In this document: piece by piece, positions 1,633 to 40,998 of the stretch
Layout of the letters: every line of letters starts with the position of its first letter
Position numbering within the stretch: the first letter of the stretch is position 1
Assembly: GCA_964016885.1 (NCBI GenBank)
Contig: OZ024741.1
Location: 266,042,001-266,106,000 of the forward strand
From: Eledone cirrhosa
Lineage: Eukaryota
Length of the DNA: 64,000 bases
Direction: 5' to 3'
Notes under the pieces: generated by a model
Told to the model about the DNA's origin: nothing
Database searches by the model: none
The model's input: only the letters and a program-made list of their open reading frames with translations
Position numbers and translations under genes: made by a program

Positions 1633-1924
1633 CTAATAATAATAATGATTTCATTTTTTAGCCACAAGGGCCGACATGTAGGGGACAATACAAAGACAGG
1701 GACAGTGGGGTTTACAATAAGGTCGAGTAAAAGTGCACAATGGCAAGACTAATTTAACAATGAAGATATAAAAATATAAAATAAACTATGCATAAATATA
1801 ACAAAATAAATTCCCCGATAGGGGGTGGACGACCCTGGGGTGACTCGGGTACCCCACCAATCCTGAACCACCCTGCGCTTCTAGGGAACCCAGGGAGAGC
1901 ACCCCTCTCCTCAAGTTAGCTAGC

Positions 1925-4900
1925 CTATAGGCGCATGGTCAGAGTAGGCCCATTCACACGAGCCATTCTCGCCACATTCATCCACCTTTTAGCAAATGTA
2001 CTGGGGGGCAGCACTTCTCTCTCCACCCTCACTCTCCTTTCCAGGTGAACCTTGAAGAAGTTGATGAGGGATTGGCCGAAGAGAAAAGTGTCTGTCTTCA
2101 GTCCTTTTAACCTGGTCCACCATATAACCTCTTTCGCAACTGCCACCAGACAGAGGAAAATTGCCTGCTCTTCCTGACCTAAGGAAGGCGGCGGGTCGAT
2201 CTTCACTATGGACTCGGCCGATAGCCGGACTCGTTCCACACACGACAGTAGCTGTTCGACATAACTCCACAAGTCAGTAATGCACGGACATTGGACATGT
2301 GCGTGCAGAACGGTTTCGTGCGCATCTTGGGCAGGTCCGTCTGACAGCCAGCCCTTCTGTGCCTGTAGAGTTTATCCCGAACCGGCAAGGCCTCCTGGTA
2401 GCACTGCCAAGCGAGGGATTTCTGGAAATTGTCCATCGTCCCCGGCTCGAAAATCCTCCGGTACAGACTGGTCAGTTCGACTTCGTCGAGACCCAAAGCT
2501 TCTCCAAGTGCGTCATCGCACTTGCCCACCACTAATCCTCTATAGAACTCGAGAGTGGAAGTTCCACTGATCGCATTTCCCGCTTGGTAGAGGGCAGTGA
2601 GTGCCTGGAAACATTCCAGGTGCCAGTCACCCAGTCTCGGTCTCTTCTTGACCCAGGACTGAAGCTCAGTCAACGAAATGAGCTGCGGAAAGGCCCGTCT
2701 GATAAACGGCGACCACACCTGTTCACCGTATAGGCAGAATATCTGGAGATGTCGCAGCCTCAACGCATCTCTACGCATCATTAGCCACGGCATGCCCAGC
2801 CCTCCACTTAGAGGGTGCTGGCAGCAGATGGACCGCCTCACCAACGGAACTTGTCCCCTCCACAAGAATTTGAAGAGGAGCCGTTCCAACTTGACGAGGC
2901 GCGGACGGGGGCAAGGCACGACGGCCAGGCCGTAGTAGATGCGCGACCTTTCAGTGATAGCTTCCTCCTAGCCTATTTTTGGGTGAGACTGGCTACTCTG
3001 CTCGTTACCTCGTCCCAATTCTTTTCCCCCTGGAGTTCTGGTCCGAACCAAACCCCGAGCAACTTTACCGGTCCGTCCGTCCAGCGCCCCACGACGCTGT
3101 TGGACGGCATGGGCTTGCCTCTCCAGGTTCCGAGCTGCAAGCCCACCGACTTTTCCGGGTTAAGTTTGGCTCCTGTCAACCTTTCATATTCCTTCAATAA
3201 GGTGCCGACCACCTCAATTTCTGAGGTGTTCGACACCATCACGGTGATGTCCGCATAAGCCGACACCGCCTTTCCACGCCCCGGTTCGAGCAGGATGCCC
3301 TGCAACAGCTCCAGCTTCGCAGTAAAGGCTCGAGAGTCAATACGTACAGAAGGGAAGAGAGAGGGCACCCTTGACGGACCGATCCGGAGAGCCGAAATGG
3401 TTCCGAGAGGTGGCCATTAACCTTGACCACCGAGCGTGTGCCGCTGTGCATTGCAGCGATCCAGCTTCTGAAGACAGGGCTGAAGTCAGCTGCTTTGAGG
3501 ACAAACTCCAGATACCGATGGTCGACCCTATCGAATGCTTTCGATTGATCTAAATTGATCAGTGCCCCACCGAAGCCAGGTTTACACCCTACCCTCTCTA
3601 TGATGTATCGCATGAAGTGGAGATTGTCGTGTATGGACCTGGCTGGGATTGCGCAAGTTTGCGCCTCCCGAACCAAATCCTCGACGACAAGCGCCAATCT
3701 CTTTGCTAACACCTTGGCCAAAATCTTAAACTCTGTGTTGAGCAGAGTTATGGGCCTGAAGTTGTCTAATGTATCCCTCTTGTTCTCGTCTTTCCTTATC
3801 AGCGTCACCACTCCCCTGCTCACAGAACTGGGAAAACTCCCATTCTACTGCCAGTTACAGTAGAGTGCTTCGAGGAGATCGGAGAACAAGTCTGGCATAT
3901 TTACGTAAAGCTCGTAGGGCAGGCCATCCAAACCGGGTGACTTGTGCCTCATGCAGCCAACAAGGGCGTCCTGAATTTCGGCTGAAGTAATCGGCCTTTC
4001 GCAGCGCTAAGCGTCGTCCGTCGAGATGCGCGGCAAGCCGTCAAGGTGGGGACTGAAATCCGCTACGCTCTCTGACTCGCCACTCTCCCCGATCAACCGA
4101 GCAAAGTGCTGGCGAAAGGCCTCACACACCGCTTGGAATCGCTTATCTCGTGTCCGTCTCGGTCCGCCAAAGACCGATTTGTGGTTTTATTACCACGCTG
4201 CGCCTCCGCCACGCGGACCCATCGAACAGCTTTGGTTCCCTCGTTTCTCAGCGCACGCTCCTTAGCTCTGACAATGCAACCTTCGTGTTTCGCATTGAAA
4301 ACATGGTCTAATGCCATTCTCGCCACTCGCACGTCAGTTGCAATGCCACTACAAATAGCCTCGTCTAACCTATCTACCAGCTCCCCCTCCTTTCTATTTT
4401 TCTCTAACGCTAGTTCTTTGCTGCACTCTATCGAAGTTACTCTAATCTCGCTTTTGAGAGCCACCCACCATCTGTTGTTGATGATCCCCCCTGTCAACTT
4501 TTGCTTAACTAAATTGTTGACTCGGTCCCTGTAAGCCTTACGTGCCGGAAATGACATGTTCAGCTTCCAGTATCCCGCTCCTAACTTACGCGTTTTATCT
4601 AGTTCGACCATATAGATCACAAATTTGTGATCTGAATAGGCGACCGTTTTAAAAAGTGGGCAGCCCACACTATTTCTATGTATTTTCCTAATGAAGATCC
4701 TGTCTATATACGATCTAGATGACCCCATTCGGTTGGTCCATGTCCATACTGGCACATTGGGAAATCTAGTCGATACCTGTCAGTTGGAACTGGCTGAGTA
4801 GGTGCTTGAGGCTTTTGCACCCCCCGCTCCTATCGGCTACTCTCACAAGTCCCAGCGTGCGTCTAAGATGCCATTCCAGTCCCCGCTAACAGTAAAGGGC

Positions 4901-5283
4901 GAGACGTACCCAGAAAGGTCTCCAGGCGCCTAAAGAAGTCCGGTCGTCCGGCCTATGTAGGAGCGTAGACGGCCAGCAGTCTAAAGGCACCACCTTCGCT
5001 ACTGCTCACATTCAGGACCACCAACTTACCGTTCGGGTCCCGGAAGATCGACCTTACCTCGAGATCCAGTCCTTTCCTAAACAGTACTGCCACCCCACCC
5101 CTCATTCCCGGCCTGCTAACAGATGCGAAGATCTGATAGTCGTCGAAAATGGGGGCTAGTGCGCGCGTGTCGGAAATTCTGGTCTCGCTGACCGCAATCA
5201 CATCCATTTCCAGCGACCTGAGGTCGTTGAGCAGGCGACCCAAGGCCGCGAACATTTAAACTTCCTACTCTTAATATGGCCAT
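1925..5283 (-). pseudogene. L1/Tx1 ORF2 (APE endonuclease + reverse transcriptase), frameshifted
   Basis: Starts MAILRVGSLNVRGL; motifs SETR, SYIDRIF, YSDHK, FRPITLLNTEFKIL, DQSKAFDRVDH, VRQGCPLS, SAYADI (decayed YADD), spread over several frames. Confidence 0.93.
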
Positions 5284-5312
5284 GTTGGCAAGCTAAAAGA
5301 GAGATGGAAGGT

Positions 5313-7189
5313 TTACTTACCTCCCGAGGTCTTGTGAAGGTCGGGTGGTTCGACCTCCATGGTTGGTGTGGTTTCTTTTGGGAACCCCTTTAAAAGTCTC
5401 GATGTGGGTTTCACATTCGGGGTTCCCACGTCTTGAGGAAAGCTCTCTCGAATTTCTTTGAAGGAATCGAGTGACATTCGGACCAGAAGCAAATCTTTTG
5501 GCACGCAAAATGTGCTCATTTCAAAAATCTCCCCCTCTGTTTGAATGTCCTCACTTCGTGCTAAGAGGGCCATCAGTTTATCGTTGGCCCTTCTGACAAG
5601 CATGAAGTTTTTGACATTTTGTTGGTGTGGTTTTATTTGTTTTCGTTTTGGTGACTGTGGTGGTGATGGTTTTGGTGATGTTGTTTCGGGTATGACTGTA
5701 TTTGTTGTAGGTGTGGTGTCTGCAATTTCAGGTATTTGTGTGTTTATTTGTACTTGTGTTTGTTTAGGTTGTTTGCGTTTCGGGGATTGTGGGGGTGGTG
5801 TCGATGTTGCTGTTGGTGCTGATGTTATTGGGGAAGTGTTTGCGTTAGTGGTGTCTGTATTTTTTGTTGTGTATGTTTTTGTGTTTTGTTGGGGCTTTTT
5901 TGGGGGTGAGTTTTCTCTGTTTTGTTTTTTTTTGCATTTTTGGGTTTTCCTTCATCTTCGCTGCTGGAAGACAAAGGGTCTGTGGCTGTGAGTGTCTCTG
6001 TGTCTGTGTGTGCGTTTATTGTTTTGTCTATGTGTATAATTGGGGGTGAGGGTAGGGGGAATGGGAGAGCTTTCCTCGTTTTCCCCTTGGATTGGTTTCG
6101 GTGTTGGTGGTGGTCCGGCTGTTTTTGATGTTAGTGTCCGTGTCTTTGTTGGTGTTGTTTTTGGTGGTGGTGGTGGTGCAGCTTTCCGTGCTGACACTGG
6201 CGTTGGCAACAAAGGAGGTTTGCGACCCCCTGCATGTTTGCACTGAGGGCAGAAGGCTTGCAGATGCGTTGCTTCCCCGCAGACGAAGCAGTGTGGCCTT
6301 CTTCCCTCAGTGATTAGTGGATTGTTGTCCCGTCCTGCAGGCGGGAAAAATCCGGGATGTTGTTCATGTCCTCCGGTTTCATTTGGAGAAGAATCTCCAA
6401 ATCCATTCCGGACCAGTCTTCTCTCTCTGTCCTTTTGATATCCAGGTGTGTAGTGTCTCTCCCCTCCTCGATTACGCATCCCAGCATCCACCATATGTTC
6501 ATTCCTGGTGGGATGCTGGGAATGCGGACCTTTACTGTCCTTTTACCCATGTAGGACGGGTGCATGATAATGCATTCCGTTCTGCAGGGGGTCACCGAGT
6601 GCTTAATAGCAAGGGCCTTGGTTTTGAACAGTACCGAGAGGGTACCGAACTGTTTGGCACTTGCTTTATACTCTATGTCACTTCCGATGCACTCCAAAGC
6701 AGCCGCGACCTCTGCTTGGCTCGCAAGTCCCACTTTTCGTGTCTGCACCGAAATGCATCGAAAGTACACCGTCCTCCTTTGCATGGTCGCTATTGCCCCG
6801 TCCGGGATGGTCAGGTTTGCCCAGGACTTCTCCCGTTTAATTAGCCTCCACGCCTAGGCCAACTGCTCGTCTTTATCGCTAATATCAATATCCAATAAGC
6901 GCTTTGTTTTTGCTGCTGCTGCAGCAAATGTGGTGCTTCTGATGCTCTTGTTGTTGGTGTTGTCGTTCTTGCTGTTGTTATTGGTGTTGTTGTTATTGTT
7001 TTGTTTGTTGTTGCTGGTGCCACCGCCATTCGTGTTTACATTGAAGCTGTCGGTGTTATTGTCGTTGTTGCTCTGAGTTGCTGTTGTTGTAGTGGTGGTG
7101 GTGGCGGTGGTGGTGATGTCGTTTTCAGATGATACTGCTTCTATCACAGAAGGTTGTTTGTGATGGTAGCTTTTGAGTTTTGCCTTCAC
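5313..7189 (-). pseudogene. L1/Tx1 ORF1 (gag-like nucleic acid binding protein), frameshifted
   Basis: CFVCGEATHLQAFC zinc knuckle; N/T-rich N-terminus; ends GGK* just upstream of ORF2; homologous to ORF1 of copy 2. Confidence 0.8.
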
Positions 7190-7520
7190 ATTCAGTAGAG
7201 TGGACGACAGGTATGACTGTAGCCGTCGTAGTTGTGGTGAAATCTATAGTGGCTGCTTTTAAACTTTTAAACGTTGTTTACCGTTTCAAGGTCGAAAATT
7301 TCCATATTTTGGGGGGGGTGGGGAAGCGATTTTTTTCGTAGTTTTTAAAAATAAATCTGAATATTCGGGCTTAAAGCCCGAATATTGAGAGGTATCCCTC
7401 TCTTGAAACCAAATTGGGCACTTTATGTTTCGTTAACGACAAGAAAATACAAAAAATGATACTTTAAAACAGCTTAAAGTTACGAACCTTTTCCCCCGCA
7501 GACTTGTACTGTCTTCACAC

Positions 7521-9122: not shown

Positions 9123-10925
9123 ATGCAGAAACAACATCTGAATATTTCTACAAAGAACATACCCGTACCAAGCAGGAAAACATACCTAAAACTCCTGATA
9201 CAGAAAACAGACGCGTTCATTAAAAGGTTGCGTTGGCGTGCCTTTTATTTCAATAATCCGCGAAAAGCAGACAACAAACAGGATAAATTTGGATTTAAAA
9301 CCTATAATAACCCTCCGTGGAACCCAGCATTGCTACCCTTCGAAAATGATGTCTTGGAACTCATTCGGAATATCAAATTTCGGAATAGGAGCAATTCCTT
9401 CCAGCAGGACCTGAAGAATAGAATTCGTTCTATTAAGGATTCTAACGCCGTGCACGTCTATTCCGACAAAACTGGCAACCTATATCAAGTGGAGCGCAGT
9501 ACTTACCATCAACTACTACATAATGCTGTAACTAAGGATTACCGTAAAACTAATCGGTGCGTCATCAATGAAATCAACGATGCTGGGTTTAAAATCACAT
9601 CTGATCTCAACATCCTGGACCGGACCGAACCTCTGGACCCTATCTCTCCCCACTTTACCCTGAAGGATCACAAATCCAATTTTCCGAACAACCCCTCTAT
9701 TCGGCTTATTAACCCTACGCAGTCCGATTTAGGTAGACTTAGTAAAACGATTCTTGATAGAATTATACCTGAAATTAGAAGTTTGGCCCCTCTCGCACTG
9801 TGGAACAATTCTTTCGCGGTGATTGATTGATTCAACGGCATATTTAACAAGGAACATTGCCGTTTTATCCAATTCGATATCAACAATTACTACTCCTCCA
9901 TCACTTTACCACTTCTCCTTAGAGCTATCAATTTCGCTAAAACACTCACAGTGGTTAAGGATTTTGAAGTTGATGTTACCCTCAATTTATTGAATGGGTT
10001 GTATTACCCGTATAGAAAGCCGAATGATACGCTTAATTACATAAGTAAGCATTCCAACCATCCTGCCAGCATAACCAAGAACCTGGTAAGAAACGTTTCG
10101 TTGAGGCTTTCCCGTCTTTCCACCAACGAGCGCATTTTCAACGACCATTCCACTTATTACAATGAAGCTCTTGCTCGAAGTGGATTTGTCGATAAGGTAG
10201 CATATACAGAGTACGAAAATAGACCTAGAAGAAATAGATCCCGTCGCATTTGTTGGTTTAACCCACCATATAATATGGAGGTGGCCACACCATTAGCTAA
10301 GATCTTTCTTTCCCTTATTACGAAGCATTTTCCCCCTACACATAAATATAGTAACATTTTTAATAGAAATACTATTAAAATTTCTTACTCTACGACTCCT
10401 AACCTTGCACATAACATCACAGCTTCAAATTTAGCTAAACTACCTAGCCGTAGGAACACGTGCAACCCTGTAGTTAGTACTAACTGTAATTGTAGGAATC
10501 GGGCTGATTGCCCCCTATCCGGGAAATGCCTCTCTAATAACATTGTCTACAAATGTAAGGTTGTAACACCCACCTCCCGTAGGGCCTACATAGGGTTAAC
10601 CGCCAATAGTTTCAAGCAGCGTCTTTACATGCATACCCATTCTTTTCGTTACCCTCTAAGAAGGAATATGACGTCACTTTCAGCTTATATCTGGAGTCTA
10701 AAAGACAACCACACCCAATATAAGTTACACTGGGAGATCCTAGCTAGGGCTAGATCGTATAACGGAAATAAAAGACCATGTGACCTCTGCGCCGCTGAGG
10801 CCCTGGAAATACTCTACGCTACAGACCACATCTTAAACAAAAAATCTGAGGCAATTTCGGCTTGTAAACATAAATTGCACAAAACTTTCCTGTATTACAG
10901 CCCCACGTTATACCCTAACGGATAG
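9123..10925 (+). pseudogene. PLE RT/GIY-YIG polyprotein with one TGA stop (9828-9830) and in-frame loss of the RT catalytic core
   Basis: KNIPVPS, LRWRAFYF, DKTGNLY, FDINNYYSSI (motif A), DVTLNL, YRKP..YISKHSNHP, CNC..CPL.GKC, IVYKC..YIG.T..FKQR..H, CDLC..E, LNKK.E; the two listed ORFs share one frame; no YRDD motif. Confidence 0.9.
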
Positions 10926-33737: not shown

Positions 33738-34172
33738 GACGGTGAAACTGAAAGAACCGGGGGGGGGGGGGGGCATGCCCCCACCCCCCAAATATTTATG
33801 TATTTTCTCTCCAAACTACCAAAACACATCGATTTGTATATGCGCTGCAATTTATGTAATGTTATGTTGAGACAGATTGGAGAGATAGATATAGATATAG
33901 AGAGGGGGAGAGTTTGGTGGTAATTGATATATATTTCTATTTATTTGCCACCAGGGCATCAAAGATTGGGACAAATACAAAGGGGGGAGTTTACATACAT
34001 TTAAAAAGACGTGTAAAAAACATATAACAAATTAAATTTAACAATCGATGTCCTCAATAGAGAGGGGCGTTGACATGGGTCGCACACACCCCCGAAAAAA
34101 TGTGCAACCCACCTCTTCAGGAGCACAAAGAGCGGGTGCTTCCTTCCTCTTCTCATTCTTCTTCTCTCTCAC

Positions 34173-37100
34173 CTACAGGCTGATATAGAGAGAAGGCCCA
34201 TTCACTCGGGCCATTCTCGCTACTTTCACCCATCTTTCATAAAACTTGCTGGGGTAGAGCACCTCTCTCTCCATTCTGATCCTTCTTCTAAAGTGGTACT
34301 TGAAAAAAAAGACCAGTTGTTGGCCGGAGAGAAAGGTGTCTGACCTCAGCCCTTTCAACCTTGTCCACCATACAACTTCTTTCACCATAGCTATCACACA
34401 GAGGAAAACCGCCTCTCCTTCGTTTTTGAAAAGGGGAGGCGGTTTGATCGTGACAATGTTCTCGGTGGTCAACCGGATTGGTCCCACCCGCGACAGTAGT
34501 CGTTCCACATAGCCCCACAGGTCAGCAACGCCCGGGCAGTGTACGAATGCGTGTGCGATGGTTTCCTCGTCACGCACGCATCTCGGACAGATCTTCTTCG
34601 AGGGGTCCCTACCCGGGCGCCCGTGTCTGTAGAGCTTGTCCCGAACGGGTAGAGCTCCTCGATAACATTGCCAAGCCAGGGACTTTTGGAAGTTGTCCAT
34701 CGGTCCCGGGCCAAACGTCCTACCGAATAGACTGGCCAGCTCATCTTCCTCTATGCCCAGAGCCTCTCCGAGAGCGTCGTCGCACTTACTGCGCACCAAC
34801 CCTCTATAGAATAATGAGGTTGAGTCTACACTGATTGCCGGATCCGCTTGCCAGAGGGCCGTGAGCGCCTGGGCACATTCAATGTGCCAGTCGCCCACTT
34901 TTCTCGGTCTTTGCTTGACCCAGGATTGCAGCTCGGTGAGTGAGACGAGTCTCGGAAAGGCTCGCCTCACAAACAGGGCCCACACCGGCTGACTGGTGAG
35001 GAATACCTGGAGGTGCCGTAGCCTTAATGCGTGTCTACGCATCGTCAGCCACGGCATCTCCAGCCCTCCGTTAGAAGGGTGTTGACAGCAGATGGATCTT
35101 CTCACCAAAGGAGCCCGCTTCTTCCAAAGAAATCGGAAGAGCGCGCGCTCCATTTTGGCGAGTGTTTTCTCTAGGCAAGGCACGACGGTCAAGCGGTAGT
35201 AGGTGACGGACGCTATATAAGCGTTCGCCACCTCTATTCGACCTTTCAGGGATAGTTTGCACTCGGCCCACTTCTGGGCGAGTGCAAACACCTTGCCCGT
35301 TACCTCGTCCCAGTTTTTCTCCACCTGGAGGTCCGGTCCTAACCAGACCCCGAGCAGCTTCACCGGTCCCTCCGTCCAGCGTCCGACGATGCCGTAGGAG
35401 GGCATCGGTTTTCCCCTCCACGTCCCGAGTTGCAAACCGACGGACTTGTCCCGGTTCAGCTTGGCTCCTGTGAACCTTTCATATTCCTCCAGTAAGGTGC
35501 CGATCTGCCCGATTTCCGAGGCGCACGACACCATTACTGTCACGTCATCGGCGTAGGCCGACACCGCTTTCCGCAATCCCGGTTCCAAGGAGATGCCCTG
35601 CAACAGCTCCAGCTTCCGCAGTAGTGGCTCAGGAGGGAAAAGAGAGGGCATCCCTGTCGGATGGATCGCGTAATTTGGAATGGCTCCGAGAGGTAGCCGT
35701 TTACCTTGACCCTCGAGCAGGTGTTGCTGCTGTGCATTGCAGCAATCCAGCCCCTGAAAACGGGCCCGAAGCCTGCCGCCGCGAGCACCGCATCCAGGTA
35801 CCGATGGTCAACCCTACCCTCTCTACGATGTATCGCATGAGGTGGAGGTTGTCGTGTATGGACCTGGACTGGATTGCGCATGTCTGCGCTTCTCTCACCA
35901 GGTTCTCGACGACAAGAACCAACCTCTTCGCTAACACCTTGGCCAAAATCTTTAACTGTGTTTAGCAGATTATGGGCCTGAAGTTATCTATGTCATTCCC
36001 CTTGTTTTCGTCCTTCCTCACCAGCGTGACTACGCCCTTGGTCACAGAACTGGGAATTCTCCCGTTCTGTTGCCAGTTGCAGTAGACCGCCTCGAGGAGA
36101 CCGGAGAACAAGCCCGGCATCGCTACATAAAGTTCGTATGGTAGACCATCGAGTCCCGGAGATTTGCGTTTGCCGCATTGGCTCAGCGCTTCCCCTATTT
36201 CAGCGGCTGAAATCGGCCTCTCGCAGGACTTGGCCTCCCCGTCCGAGAGCCGCGCCAGACCGTCGAGGTATGGACCGAAATCCATGGCCCCACCCGGCCA
36301 GCCGCCCCTCCCGAACATTCGTGCAAAGCGCCGTTGAAAGGCCGCGCTCATCCGCTCAGGTTCAAGGATCACACGTCCATCCTGGTCCTTCAAAGACCGA
36401 ATCGTGAACTTGTTTCCACTTTTTGCCTCTGTCACTCGGGCCCAGCTAACAGCTTTGGCTCCCTCGTTACCCAGAGCACGTATTTTACTCCTGACAACGC
36501 AGCCCTCGTGCTTCGCATCAAAGAACTGGTCTAGGGCCGTTCCTGACGCCAGCACGCCGGCCACGTTGCCACTCCTAATCGCCTCTTCTACTCTATTTAT
36601 TAATTCCCTTTCAGTTCTATTCCTATCTGATGCTAATTCCCGACTAAAACCTATCGATTCTATTCTAATTTCTCTCTTGACAATTACTGTTGACAATTAC
36701 CCCCGTCAAACGCTGCTTAACTAGTGTGCTAATCCGCTTACTGTAAGCTTTGTTTGTCGGCAAAGACAAGTTTAACTTCCAGTAACCGGGTCCCTGTCTA
36801 TGAGTTCTATCAAGGTTGACCACTCCGGTCACCAACTTGTGATCCGAATAGTCAACCATGAACATTCGTGGACAGCTTAATATGTCCCTATCCTTATTTC
36901 TAACTAGGAACATATCTAGGTACGACCTAGATGTGCCGCTACGATTAGTCCACGTCCACAGTGGCACAGTCGGAAAATCTAGTCGATATCTATCGGCCAG
37001 ATCAAATCGGCCGATTAATCGTTTGAGGCTGTTACATCCCCCTCTATCGGGACATGCCCCTACATAGTCCCAACGTGCATCCAGGATACCATTCCAGTCC

Positions 37101-37518
37101 CCCACTAAAAGCAAGGAACGAGACGTTCCCAGGAAATTCTCCAAGCGTCGGAAGAAGTCCGGTCGCGGTGTCCCAGATGGGGGCATACGCTGCCACCAGC
37201 CTGAAAGCTCCACCTTCACCACTGCCGACGTCTAAAACCAGCAGTCGACCCTCCGGGTCCAGGTGTACCTTCTGTGTGGCAAGACCCAGGTATTTTCGCA
37301 GCAGAACGACAACCCACCCCGACCCCTTGGCTGAAAGATAGATGCGTAGATCTCAAAGTCGTCGAAGATGGGGGCCAGTTGCCGCTCGTTGCTGATCCTG
37401 GACTCGCAAATAACCATTACATCCACTCTGTGCGACTTGAGGTCATTTAAGAGTTTTCCCTGTTTCCAGGACATCCCCAGGCCGCGTCATTCACACATCC
37501 AACTCTTATATTGGCCAT
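34173..37518 (-). pseudogene. L1/Tx1 ORF2 (APE + RT + Cys/His C-terminal domain), frameshifted
   Basis: GDWNG, SYLDMFL, YSDHK, KSPGLDGLPYE, NFRPI, IRQGCP, AYADD, CPRC...ETIAHAFVHC. Confidence 0.93.
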
Positions 37519-37555
37519 GTTGGTGCTGAAGAGTTAAAAGGAAGAGGAAAGGAAA

Positions 37556-38295
37556 TTACTTACCTCTTCGTCTCTTGGGGACCAGGCTGCACAATTTCCA
37601 TGGGGGTGTTGGAAGGGTTGTTTGGTGGGGTGGTGGTTTGTGGTGGGGTGAGGATATCAGTGTGTGGTGGGATTAGGATGTTTGGTGGGGTGTGGTGTCT
37701 GGTGTGGGGTTGGGGAAACATCTCAATAGGACGCTGTTAAGTGGTTTGGTGCAGTTGGTCCCCACATGCATTGGATGGTTCTTTTTCAAAGTTACATAGG
37801 TTTCCGTTGGGACCCTAATCATCATTAGGTGCGGTTTGTTCGCTGCGTAGGTGAAAGTGATCCCTTCGGTTTCCACCGAAGGGTTATTTTCTATTGCTTT
37901 CATCAAAGTTTTGTTGTTCTTGTTAATGTATGTATAGAGTTTTTGTTGTGTTGTGTTTGTTTTTGTTTGTTGTTCTTGTGCGTGTTTGCGTTTTGTAGTA
38001 TGTGTTATGTTTTGGGGAGGGGTGGGTTTTTTTGTTTGTGATGTTTGTTCTGTTTGTGCTGGTGGTTGTGTGTTTGTAGCATTTTTGTTAATGTGGTGCC
38101 TTTTTTTTTTCTTTTCACCTGTTGAAAGGATTCTCCCTCGTCGTCACTGGGTGACGTTGATACGGAGTCCTCTTCCGTGTTGTTGGCGAGGGGTATATTT
38201 TGGGGTTTTGTAGTGGTTGCTTTTGTATTTGTTTTAGGTGAGGAGGGGTTGGGTGGAACAGTGTTTTGTGTTGTTATTTTTCCGTGTTGTTGTGG

Positions 38296-38329
<34 letters not shown>

Positions 38330-39361
38330 GGTGGTGGTGGTGGTGGTGGTGGTGGTGGTGGTGGTTGTGTTGTTGTGTTCGGGGTTGGCAGAAGAGCCTT
38401 TTTTTTTTTACTCGTTAATTGAGGACAGGATGCCCTCAGGTGACCCCTGCTTAAGCAGTGGTAACATGATGGCCGCCTTCCCTCCACTGAAATGTTTATA
38501 TAAGTTAGCCCGTCCAGAGGCACGCGTTGTGGGATATTCGCTATTCATTCTGGGCTCATTTGCACCAGAACTTCTACGCTGGTCCCACCAAATACACCTC
38601 CGTAGGACTTTCCTATTGAAATTATCCTGTCTTCATCAAAGTCAATGATTCCACATAGTATCCACCAAATATTTACATTTGGTGTGATACTCATGATTTT
38701 TATTCTTTGTGTCCTTTTTCCCCTGTATGTGGGGAAAAAGGTGAAGCGGGGGGACACAATGGGTGATACCGAGTATTTTTGTGCTGTTGACTGGTTATTC
38801 ATTAGCACCGAAATGCTACCAAACAGTTTTCCTTTTTGTATGAAGGTTATGTCCTTCATTGCATCTTTTAGAATAATTTTGTGATAATTGAGCTGGTTTT
38901 CTTGTTTCGTTCGATATTGTTCTGAAAACCAGTTTTCAGGACAGCCTCTCTACGTAATTCCTGTGGAGAATTGATGCTAAAAGCACCGTTTTCGCCAAAA
39001 GTCACAAATTGGTTTGCGTCTTGTAGTAGTTGTTTAGCATTTGTTATGTCAATTGGCGTGTATAGTTCGTTTTTTTTACAGTCTGTGCGAACGTTGTTTT
39101 GGTGCTGTTGTCTTTTTTGTTTCTGTTGTTGTTGTCACTGTTGGTAATATTGTTCATGTTTTCCTTGGTGTTGCTATTGTTGCAGTTGTTGGTTGTGGTG
39201 TTATTGTCATTGTTCTTGTTGTTGGTGTTGGTACTATTTACCGGGTTTGGTTTCGTCGTTTCAATATTTTCAACGTTTTTTGATAATGCGAGGGGGGAAG
39301 GCTGCAAGCTTTGTACTCCTACCTTCCCTCCACCACTTTTCTTAGTGAACGTGGCACTCAC
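37556..39361 (-). pseudogene. L1/Tx1 ORF1, frameshifted
   Basis: EGRRPSCYHCLSRGHLRASC knuckle; PTYRGKRT and NIWW.L shared with copy 1; ends RGK*. Confidence 0.8.
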
Positions 39362-40998
39362 AACAGTGTGCGAGGTTGAAATGGCATCCCTTGCTGAATA
39401 CCAAGTCTACACAGTTTTGAGATGAAAATGAAAATTTCGCCCCAGAAAGGGGCGAAAATTAGTTGACTCAACGTCTGCAGGCCCAGGCAAGGGGTTAAAC
39501 TAAACAATGCTATTAAATTGAGCAATGAACTCACAGTTTTTTTGACAATAATCCGTAAAAATTCGGGGCGAAGTAATTCATGTCTATATCAAGTGGTAAC
39601 TGATATAGAGAGGGGGAGAGTTTGTTGTTAATTCATGTATAGAGGGGCGTTGGGAGAGTATGTTGTATGGTTGATGTAGCGCGGGGGAGAGTTTGGTAGT
39701 GATGTATAGAGTGCGAGAGAATGAGAGAGAGAGTGTTGTATGGTATATATAGAGAGGGAGATAGAGTTGAACCCGGGATAAACACACGCACACATTTATA
39801 TAAATATATATATATATATGTGTGTGTGTGTATATATATATGTATATATATATATATATATAGATATATATATATATATAGTGTGTGTGTGTATACGTGC
39901 CTGTATACGTACATATATGCATGCACATACACACACATACATACATGCATACATACATACACACACACACACATACAAACATACAAATGTGCAATACCAG
40001 CGTCTCGAAATCTCGTAATACACACACACACACACTGGCGTCCTGCTTCTATATATTGGAGAACGCTGTAAATATGAGGAAGACAACAACAACAACAACA
40101 ACAACTGCAACAACAACTGCAACAATATTAATAAGAAACTAAAGCAACGCAGAAACATGTAAAATTAATAAAGAAAAATATGGCGAAGTCTTCTCTGAGC
40201 CAATAACTTGAGACAAACTATATAGCGTCTCTGACTGATATCTTATTACAAAAGATGTTATAAGCCAGGCAGTAGAAGTGTTTGGTTTTGTGGTTAAATC
40301 GTTGGCTTTGTGGTTGTAAGGCTGCAAGTTCGATTCTTGACGCGGCGCTGTGCTGTATCCTTGTATGTGACATTTTTTTTTCTTTTTGCTGTGTGTTTGT
40401 CTAGTTCAGTCACCTGACTCAAATGTAACTGTACCTGCAATCAGAGCTTCCGTTATAGTTTTGGAATGGGGGGGGGGCGTCTGGTCGGGCTAATGTATAT
40501 GTATATATACATAAATATATATATATATAAAAAACATGAGAAGAAAGAATACTGCGTGGTTGCACATGGGTTACATATGATAAAAATAGTCCTTCGTCAG
40601 TGATTTTCCAATCTTCATTGGTATTTCATCGCTTTAAAAATCATATACCTCCGGTTGGTGCGGGAAATGGCTAAATAAAGCTATTGGGACAAGTAAATCG
40701 CGTAAAGCGAGCGAGACAGTAAACAACAAGGAAGGATAGCAACGCAAAGATAGGAAAAAACAAGCAGCGTGGGAATCCGGTCAGCTTAAGCTGGATGGAT
40801 TTCATGAGCATTTGATCGTTTTTTTTTTTGGCTCTGCGAATGATTGTTTAACCATCGTCTCGGTGTGTTTGGCCTTTAACGTTTGTTATAGCTCTGGCTC
40901 ATCTGAATCATTGAGCACTTGCCACACATATCGGAGGTTGTTTTTCGTTATTTCGTGGGCCGAAATGCGAATCTCGATAATTTATGTTTGTTTATATA

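What the first reader, a model, noticed from the sequence alone, without database searches (positions are those of the whole stretch)
5281..5325. Conserved splice-signal cassette at the ORF1/ORF2 junction of two divergent L1/Tx1 elements
Seen: on the minus strand copy 1 reads GAG|GTAAGTAAaccttccatctctcttttAG|cttgccaacATGG (28-nt GT-AG, 5293-5320). Copy 2 reads GAG|GTAAGTAAtttcctttcctcttccttttaactcttcAG|caccaacATGG (38 nt, 37526-37563). Both keep a perfect 5' donor overlapping the ORF1 stop (G-K-*), a polypyrimidine tract with AG, and a strong Kozak ATG, although the ORF1 proteins are very diverged. Removing the mini-intron does not fuse the ORFs in frame (1+9 and 1+7 nt). Inference: the acceptor may produce a spliced subgenomic ORF2 mRNA from an upstream donor, and the donor an ORF1-only RNA or a U1-binding control site. 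Mammalian L1 ORF2 is established to be made by termination/re-initiation on the bicistronic RNA, so splicing control would be a different strategy.
Basis: partly seen in the sequence, partly recalled or inferred. Interest (0 to 1): 0.72.

Follow-up and report, generated by a model that had tools for sequence, protein, structure and literature searches.

The report
Structure-masked splice donor in LINEs
These jumping genes (LINE retrotransposons) keep a splice-start signal where their first gene ends but no matching splice-end signal, a predicted RNA fold would hide it once the whole message is made, and 20 hybrid copies in the genome are joined exactly at it, so it is likely a real docking site for the splicing machinery that now and then swaps the first gene between families.

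Summary
A 5' donor sits at the ORF1 end in 13 of 14 family representatives (ORF2 69-97% identical), while the AG before the ORF2 ATG is present in only 6 of 14. No genomic copy has lost the mini-intron, and none has an upstream exon joined to that AG. The pyrimidine tract is better explained as one arm of a predicted helix with the purine tract behind the ORF2 stop, 3.4 kb away, which also covers the donor. New here: 20 chimeric elements from two independent joints have ORF1 of one family ending exactly at the donor and continuing right after a CAG in ORF1 of another family. Both parents and mixed tandem arrays exist, so these are likely spliced read-through transcripts that retrotransposed. 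The most abundant family keeps donor and helix but has no AG at either proposed acceptor. Best reading: a U1 docking site gated by RNA structure, normally unspliced. No RNA data could be tested. The scan noted the donor and helix before on other pieces of this genome, but not the chimeras.

The parts
1650..7520 (-). Copy 1 (family A): full-length, decayed L1-group LINE, inserted in a (TTA)n tract; ends approximate
5315..5323 (-). 5' splice donor GAG|GTAAGT at the ORF1 end (phase 1; ORF1 stop TAA at 5315-5313)
5284..5314 (-). Pyrimidine-rich spacer and Kozak context; predicted 5' arm of the long-range helix; its AG (5294-5293) is not conserved across families
1925..5283 (-). ORF2 of copy 1 (endonuclease, RT, zf-RVT; broken by stops and frameshifts), ATG 5283, stop TAG 1927-1925
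   Evidence: domains from an intact sister-family copy
1870..1935 (-). Purine-rich stretch at and behind the ORF2 stop; predicted 3' arm pairing with the ORF1/ORF2 junction (-52.8 kcal/mol)
33930..39600 (-). Copy 2 (family B): full-length, decayed L1-group LINE; ends approximate
37558..37566 (-). 5' splice donor GAG|GTAAGT overlapping the ORF1 stop (Arg-TAA, phase 2)
37519..37557 (-). Pyrimidine-rich spacer and Kozak context; predicted 5' helix arm; AG at 37527-37526 kept in only some families
37564..37640 (-). ORF1 3' end: the exon end that, in sister families G and XG, is joined to another family's ORF1 in 20 chimeric elements elsewhere in the genome
34173..37518 (-). ORF2 of copy 2 (broken), ATG 37518, stop TAG 34175-34173
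34113..34185 (-). Purine-rich stretch behind the ORF2 stop; predicted 3' helix arm (-52.2 kcal/mol)

Best explanation
The conserved unit is a 5' splice donor at the ORF1 end plus a predicted long-range RNA helix that masks it, and it likely works as a U1 snRNP docking site on an RNA that normally stays unspliced. Shown: the donor is kept across families whose ORF1 ends, stop codons and donor phase differ; the nearby AG is not kept; spacer and post-ORF2 purine tract are complementary; 20 chimeric elements are joined exactly at the donor. Inferred: U1 binds while the 3.4 kb of ORF2 is being transcribed and protects the nascent RNA from early 3'-end cleavage; once the 3'UTR exists the helix forms, displaces U1 and leaves an unspliced, polyadenylated genomic RNA. 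Also inferred: when transcription reads through into a tandem neighbour, the donor is occasionally spliced to a cryptic CAG in the neighbour's ORF1, and the product retrotransposes as an ORF1-swapped element.
For: (1) Donor at the ORF1 end in 13 of 14 family representatives, as GTAAGT, GTGAGT, GTAGGT or single-base variants, in phase 1 or 2, with TAA, TGA or TAG stops. It is kept across three deep groups with 69-76% ORF2 identity and absent from the ORF1 stop of 15 of 15 distant relatives with a junction, of 33 loci fetched. Family M (3,341 exact 3'-end matches) has the donor in 10 of 10 copies read, no spacer AG and a TAA stop at ORF2. (3) Helix: the cognate duplex beats all 432-446 other windows of the element and all 100 shuffles in 13 of 14 representatives. 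The exception is a D/M recombinant, whose arm pairs with the M junction at -53.7. Whole-region folds of 3.6 kb recover the helix over the donor in 2 of 2 families folded. In C, G and M the arm carries a 6-7 base complement that differs as the donor differs. (4) Use of the donor: 21 of 33 hits and 21 of 21 are joints at the exon end, together 20 elements and two joint types. Each 3' partner begins right after a CAG, out of register by 23 and 75-76 nt, with only the AG shared; YAG marks 5 of 200 positions there. The unjoined 5' parent (GTGAGT at the joint) and 3' parent were found, and same-strand mixed-family neighbours occur in 5 of 6 stretches fetched for that purpose. 478 exact unjoined copies give the denominator. 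(5) Precedent: U1 at a donor suppresses premature termination in the Ty1/Copia element EVD (PMC5580714, section 8 read) and in foamy virus, where RNA structure blocks U1 at the 3' end (PMC3694450, abstract read).
Against: No RNA evidence at all. Protection from early cleavage has no positive sign: no poly(A) hexamer is conserved in ORF2, and those 250-350 nt upstream of the donor (11 of 13 full-length representatives) are not homologous between groups and are expected in a 37-40% A ORF1. The complement to the donor itself is partial in 12 of 15 representatives, and within the B group a junction often pairs as well or better with a sister family's arm. The chimeras rest on only two independent events, in one group of families. 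None was found for C/F, E or A/D, and in M three single-copy large rearrangements break within 0-3 nt of the donor without being clean donor-to-AG joints. A control site in ORF2 gave 3 single-copy deletions among 6 hits, so breaks near any site have a background. These families also recombine in register, so template switching on a 2-nt AG overlap cannot be excluded.
Confidence: 0.5

Rival explanations
1. ORF2 is a regulated intron: the donor is spliced to a distal acceptor inside the element, most simply the AG of the ORF2 stop (TAG|G) or the invariant TTA-G at ORF2 codons 138/139, giving an ORF1-only mRNA as in Ty1/Copia short GAG; the helix would set the ratio.
For: TAG|G at the ORF2 stop in 10 of 12 aligned representatives, and a pyrimidine-rich TTAG at codon 138/139 in 11 of 12, the top-ranked shared YAG. 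In B, C and F the joined form would end ORF1 with the same Arg-stop. An ORF1-only RNA has no RT in cis, so missing retrocopies are expected. The chimeras show the donor can be used.
Against: Family M, the most abundant found, has TAA there yet keeps donor and helix. The bases around the ORF2 stop are explained by pairing with the Kozak/ATG. In E (one copy), G and H2 the joined form would add 33-44 codons. The codon-138 window shows no excess synonymous conservation (0.62 against 0.61), and 4 of 94 conserved Leu columns are as YTA-biased. No retrocopy joined to the ORF2-stop site in A, B/G, C or C/F. A strong internal acceptor should have pre-empted the read-through joints.
Confidence: 0.25
2. 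The helix is the selected feature (closing ORF2 into a loop that controls ORF2 translation or RNA packaging); the donor-like motif is a by-product of stop codon plus pairing, and the chimeras are RT template switches on a 2-nt overlap.
For: The helix includes the ORF2 AUG and stop. These families recombine often. Non-splice breaks occur near the donor in M.
Against: The donor consensus survives changes of stop codon and of phase, so it does not follow the stop. It is kept where its complement is poor. Both independent inter-family joints hit the exact exon end and a CAG, while two control AG-ending sites gave no recurrent or inter-family joint among 2 and 6 hits.
Confidence: 0.17
3. One reading: the AG before the ORF2 ATG is a real acceptor, used by the adjacent donor (28-38 nt mini-intron) or by an upstream donor to make an ORF2-only mRNA.
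For: Where present it is the best-scoring pyrimidine-AG of the element (A, B, G, H, H2). Human L1 has usable internal splice sites and spliced retrocopies (PMC5860796, abstract and introduction read).
Against: Absent in 8 of 14 family representatives. No retrocopy of either product, although such RNAs would carry ORF2 in cis. Validated ultra-short human introns are 37-65 nt (PMC4463651, abstract read); the minimum for this host is unknown.
Confidence: 0.05

Closest known systems
Tx1-clade, target-specific L1-group LINEs (Tx1, Keno, Kibi, Koshi; PMC4494074, passages read); 13 recently active L1-Tx1 families in Octopus vulgaris (PMC13282606, passages read)
   Same: Two ORFs, CCHC-like knuckle in ORF1, endonuclease-RT-zf-RVT ORF2, insertion into simple repeats and tandem arrays.
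   Different: No donor at the ORF1 stop, long-range helix or splice-joined chimera is mentioned in the passages read ('splic' has 0 occurrences in PMC13282606).
Ty1/Copia EVD short-GAG control (PMC5580714, abstract and section 8 read)
   Same: A conserved U1 site near the end of the structural gene, needed to keep the full-length RNA from terminating early.
   Different: LTR element with a defined intron and a demonstrated spliced RNA; here no conserved acceptor, and the donor is masked by a 3.4-kb-range helix.
Foamy virus major splice donor switch (PMC3694450, abstract read)
   Same: U1 binding suppresses polyadenylation and an RNA structure that blocks U1 releases it.
   Different: Local structure in duplicated LTRs, shown by experiment; here a single internal site and a predicted long-range helix.
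Human SpIREs (PMC5860796, abstract and introduction read) and spliced mRNA/L1 chimeras (PMC13174262, passages read)
   Same: Retrotransposed copies whose joints lie at splice donors and acceptors reveal splicing.
   Different: Those use 5'UTR donors or host exons, and SpIREs are described as dead ends; here the donor is at the ORF1 end, joins two LINE families, and the products multiplied to 20 copies.

Membership tests
L1-group non-LTR retrotransposon | ORF2 with AP-type endonuclease and RT | tested here: met
   Pfam Exo_endo_phos, RVT_1 and zf-RVT in an intact sister-family ORF2; best solved relative human L1 ORF2p, E 7e-52
L1-group non-LTR retrotransposon | Separate upstream ORF1, short 3'UTR with poly(A) signal, 5'-truncated copies | tested here: met
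   the zf-CCHC hit in ORF1 is below the curated cut-off
Tx1 clade | Target preference for repeats, tandem insertion | tested here: met
   copy 1 in (TTA)n, chimeras in (TATC)n-like tracts, tandem arrays
Tx1 clade | RT phylogeny with named Tx1 elements | not testable with these tools
No named Tx1 sequence came from any call; close homologs carry no names.
GT-AG mini-intron or ORF2 acceptor cassette | Acceptor conserved with the donor | tested here: not met
   AG in 6 of 14 representatives, donor in 13 of 14
GT-AG mini-intron or ORF2 acceptor cassette | Spliced product seen in RNA or retrocopies | tested here: inconclusive
   No retrocopy; RNA not available
SpIRE-type spliced retrocopy (the chimeras) | Joint at a GT donor and after an AG of identifiable parents | tested here: met
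   Both joints, parents found, 2-nt overlap only
SpIRE-type spliced retrocopy (the chimeras) | Splicing between these sites shown in RNA | not testable with these tools
   no RNA run listed
Copia-type short-GAG system | Conserved intron yielding a structural-protein-only mRNA | tested here: inconclusive
   Candidate acceptors are not universal or not distinguishable from coding and pairing constraint
U1 telescripting site | U1 binding suppresses a nearby cryptic poly(A) site | not testable with these tools
   Hexamer scan uninformative

The most novel reading that the evidence does not exclude
A LINE lineage uses a 3.4-kb-range RNA clamp as a timer on a U1 site at the ORF1/ORF2 border, and leakage of that donor in tandem arrays is a spliceosome-driven route for swapping ORF1 and promoter between LINE families, producing active hybrids rather than dead ends.
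Probability: 0.35. Interest if true: 0.8.

Novelty: new variant of a known kind. Interest (0 to 1): 0.6.

Why it matters
LINEs must keep a long, intronless, A-rich RNA intact, and strong splice donors are normally a liability for them. A donor kept by selection at the ORF1 end and gated by a fold that exists only in the finished transcript would be a LINE counterpart of U1 control in Copia elements and foamy viruses, testable with a few point and compensatory changes in a reporter. The chimeras offer a concrete, dateable mechanism for replacing a LINE's 5' module, which is usually ascribed to template switching (recalled). Five literature searches listed no paper whose title or abstract start describes this for a LINE; only open-access papers were searched.

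Tried and rejected
RNA test: no RNA holder listed. The six runs are contig sets; of the four laid, X1, X2 and X6 cover the flanking repeat most deeply, as DNA would, and the joint table was swamped by that repeat. One search did not show the low-copy chimera joints among its top rows. Neither call is evidence. Mini-intron loss: none in the B/G group (33 hits = 21 chimera joints + 12 one-base or short-indel variants, 11 of the 12 read) or A/D (0 hits). In-frame ORF1-ORF2 fusion through the AGAG in ORF2 codons 5-6: would have matched and was not seen; one A/D copy is a deletion between GTA repeats. ORF2-only retrocopies: 2 hits, both internal deletions. Donor joints in other families: C 1 hit (point change), C/F 1 and 0 hits, E 1 hit (short deletion), A 4 unrelated matches. 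The family M pattern was mis-indexed by one base, so most of its 29 hits are point changes. The phase column was wrong for A, D, H, I and J; phases are taken. A second donor-like site about 55 nt before the ORF2 stop follows the conserved R-W-V codons and was set aside. A dedicated genome-wide probe for a joint to the codon-138/139 site was not run; searches cover that class for B/G, A/D and C/F only. Pattern searches need exact matches, so older, mutated copies are missed. No supplements were read.

Full report
Observation. Both junctions read as stated on the minus strand: copy 1 donor at 5320 and AG at 5293, copy 2 donor at 37563 and AG at 37526. They lie in two decayed full-length LINEs of about 5.8 kb in a 3.0-Gb animal genome, where each query had about 3,100 candidates. 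That the host is an octopus comes from earlier notes and from the look of the repeats, not from a call. An intact sister-family ORF2 has endonuclease, RT and zf-RVT domains and is closest to human L1 ORF2p among solved structures. Copy 2's ORF1 ends in Arg-stop (phase 2), not G-K-stop.

Donor kept, acceptor not. A pattern for the ORF2 start that ignores the spacer found 2,241 copies. In the first 30 a donor motif sits at the ORF1 end in 30, and an AG lies in the spacer in 8 (16 of the 30 are one family). Over 14 family representatives (my labels A-K, H2, M, M2) the donor is present in 13 (the J copy has it mutated) and the spacer AG in 6. The donor varies within the U1 consensus (GTAAGT, GTGAGT, GTAGGT), changes phase and stop codon, and spans three groups with 69-76% ORF2 identity; sites this good occur only 1-4 times per element. 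Of 33 distant relatives fetched from metagenomes, the 15 with a junction have no donor at the ORF1 stop, so the trait is lineage-specific.

No copy has lost the mini-intron (478 exact unjoined B/G donors), and none in the B/G/H group has foreign sequence joined to the spacer AG. Such RNAs would carry ORF2 in cis and should leave copies, as human SpIREs do (PMC5860796, abstract and introduction read). RNA could not be tested.

The pyrimidine tract is a helix arm. Earlier notes (e1-8812392, e1-8835859) pointed to pairing between the junction and the purine tract behind the ORF2 stop, and I tested it. Cognate duplexes are -52 to -72 kcal/mol and beat every other window of the element and all 100 shuffles in 13 of 14 representatives. 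The exception is a D/M recombinant. Full folds of the 3.6-kb region recover the helix over the donor in both families folded. In C, G and M the arm holds a complement that follows the donor variant; in the other 12 of 15 it is partial. Specificity holds between the deep groups but not within the B group. All of this is prediction.

Family M tests the 'ORF2 as intron' idea. M has 3,341 exact 3'-end matches and an unrelated ORF1 end. In 10 of 10 copies read it keeps the donor on the ORF1 stop, has no AG in the spacer and ends ORF2 with TAA, and it keeps the helix. So donor plus helix is the conserved unit, and the AG of the ORF2 stop (10 of 12) is not required. A third candidate, an invariant TTA-G at ORF2 codons 138/139 (11 of 12), shows no excess synonymous conservation and stays a lead.

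Fossil use of the donor. Searching for B/G exon ends followed by non-donor sequence gave 21 hits and 21 of 33, together 20 elements with two joint types. Joint 1 (18 hits) continues in the ORF1 end of family E right after a CAG, 23 nt out of register. Joint 2 (4 elements, two of them also counted under joint 1) continues after another CAG 75-76 nt upstream in an already chimeric ORF1. The parents share only the AG at each joint, and 17 of 17 chimeras fetched at length match both parents with at most 2 mismatches in 20 nt on either side; the 18th locus fetched is the parent. The 3' parent is a common subfamily. The 5' parent was found unjoined with GTGAGT at the joint, and same-strand neighbours of different families occur in 5 of 6 stretches chosen from close coordinates. 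The chimeras have E-type ORF2 and lie at separate sites. The G-type copies with joint 1 alone share a variant with the double form and are not counted as a third event. Two control sites ending in AG gave no recurrent or inter-family joint (2 and 6 hits). Against: only two events; none in C/F, E or A/D; three non-splice breaks near the donor in M; frequent in-register recombination. I put a splicing origin at about 0.75 (judgement). A word search of the scan's notes for such chimeras found none.

Mechanism. The donor appears 3.4 kb before its masking arm is transcribed (shown by position). U1 would bind first and be displaced when the 3'UTR pairs (inferred), leaving the genomic RNA unspliced, which fits the lack of retrocopies and of a dedicated acceptor. 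What U1 does meanwhile is inferred from EVD (PMC5580714, section 8 read) and foamy virus (PMC3694450, abstract read): suppression of early 3'-end formation. My hexamer scans give no support for that step. Read-through into a tandem copy lets the donor find a cryptic CAG, as host exons do with human L1 (PMC13174262, passages read).

Verdict. The elements are ordinary Tx1-like LINEs; the donor-plus-clamp arrangement and the donor-joined hybrids are a new variant of known U1 and splicing control in retroelements, not seen in the listings of five searches. The donor and helix were noted before by this scan on other pieces of the same genome; the chimeras and the family M test are added here. Interest 0.6.

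Noticed in passing
L135 (G000:C1:18927400-18934400): Recombinant element: family D for ORF1 and the first 2 kb of ORF2, family M for the 3' end, so its junction and 3' arm do not match; a natural mismatch test of the helix.
   Followed up: partly
ORF2 codons about 559-575 in the 12-family alignment: A stretch with complete synonymous identity between the deep groups (J partly and M2 wholly deleted there); could be an RNA element or an exchanged segment.
   Followed up: partly
L105-L108, L337-L345, L346-L355: Head-to-tail arrays about 5.8-5.9 kb apart, of one family or of mixed families, separated by short simple repeats.
   Followed up: partly
L337:8242-8266: The unjoined 5' parent has a shortened 25-nt spacer that has lost the AG of its family but keeps the donor.
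   Followed up: yes
L352, L355 against L346-L351: Two different ORF1 3' regions sit on the same family M spacer and ORF2, another ORF1 swap; its breakpoint was not mapped.
   Followed up: no
window 9123-10925 (+): Two ORFs that look like a broken Penelope-type RT with a GIY-YIG-like end (recalled resemblance, not searched).
   Followed up: no
L146 upstream flank: A 430-codon RT-like frame of another LINE group upstream of a 5'-truncated copy.
   Followed up: no
L371, L358, L384: Three single family M copies with a large deletion or inversion starting within 3 nt of the donor; could be background or RT jumps onto a free 5' exon.
   Followed up: partly
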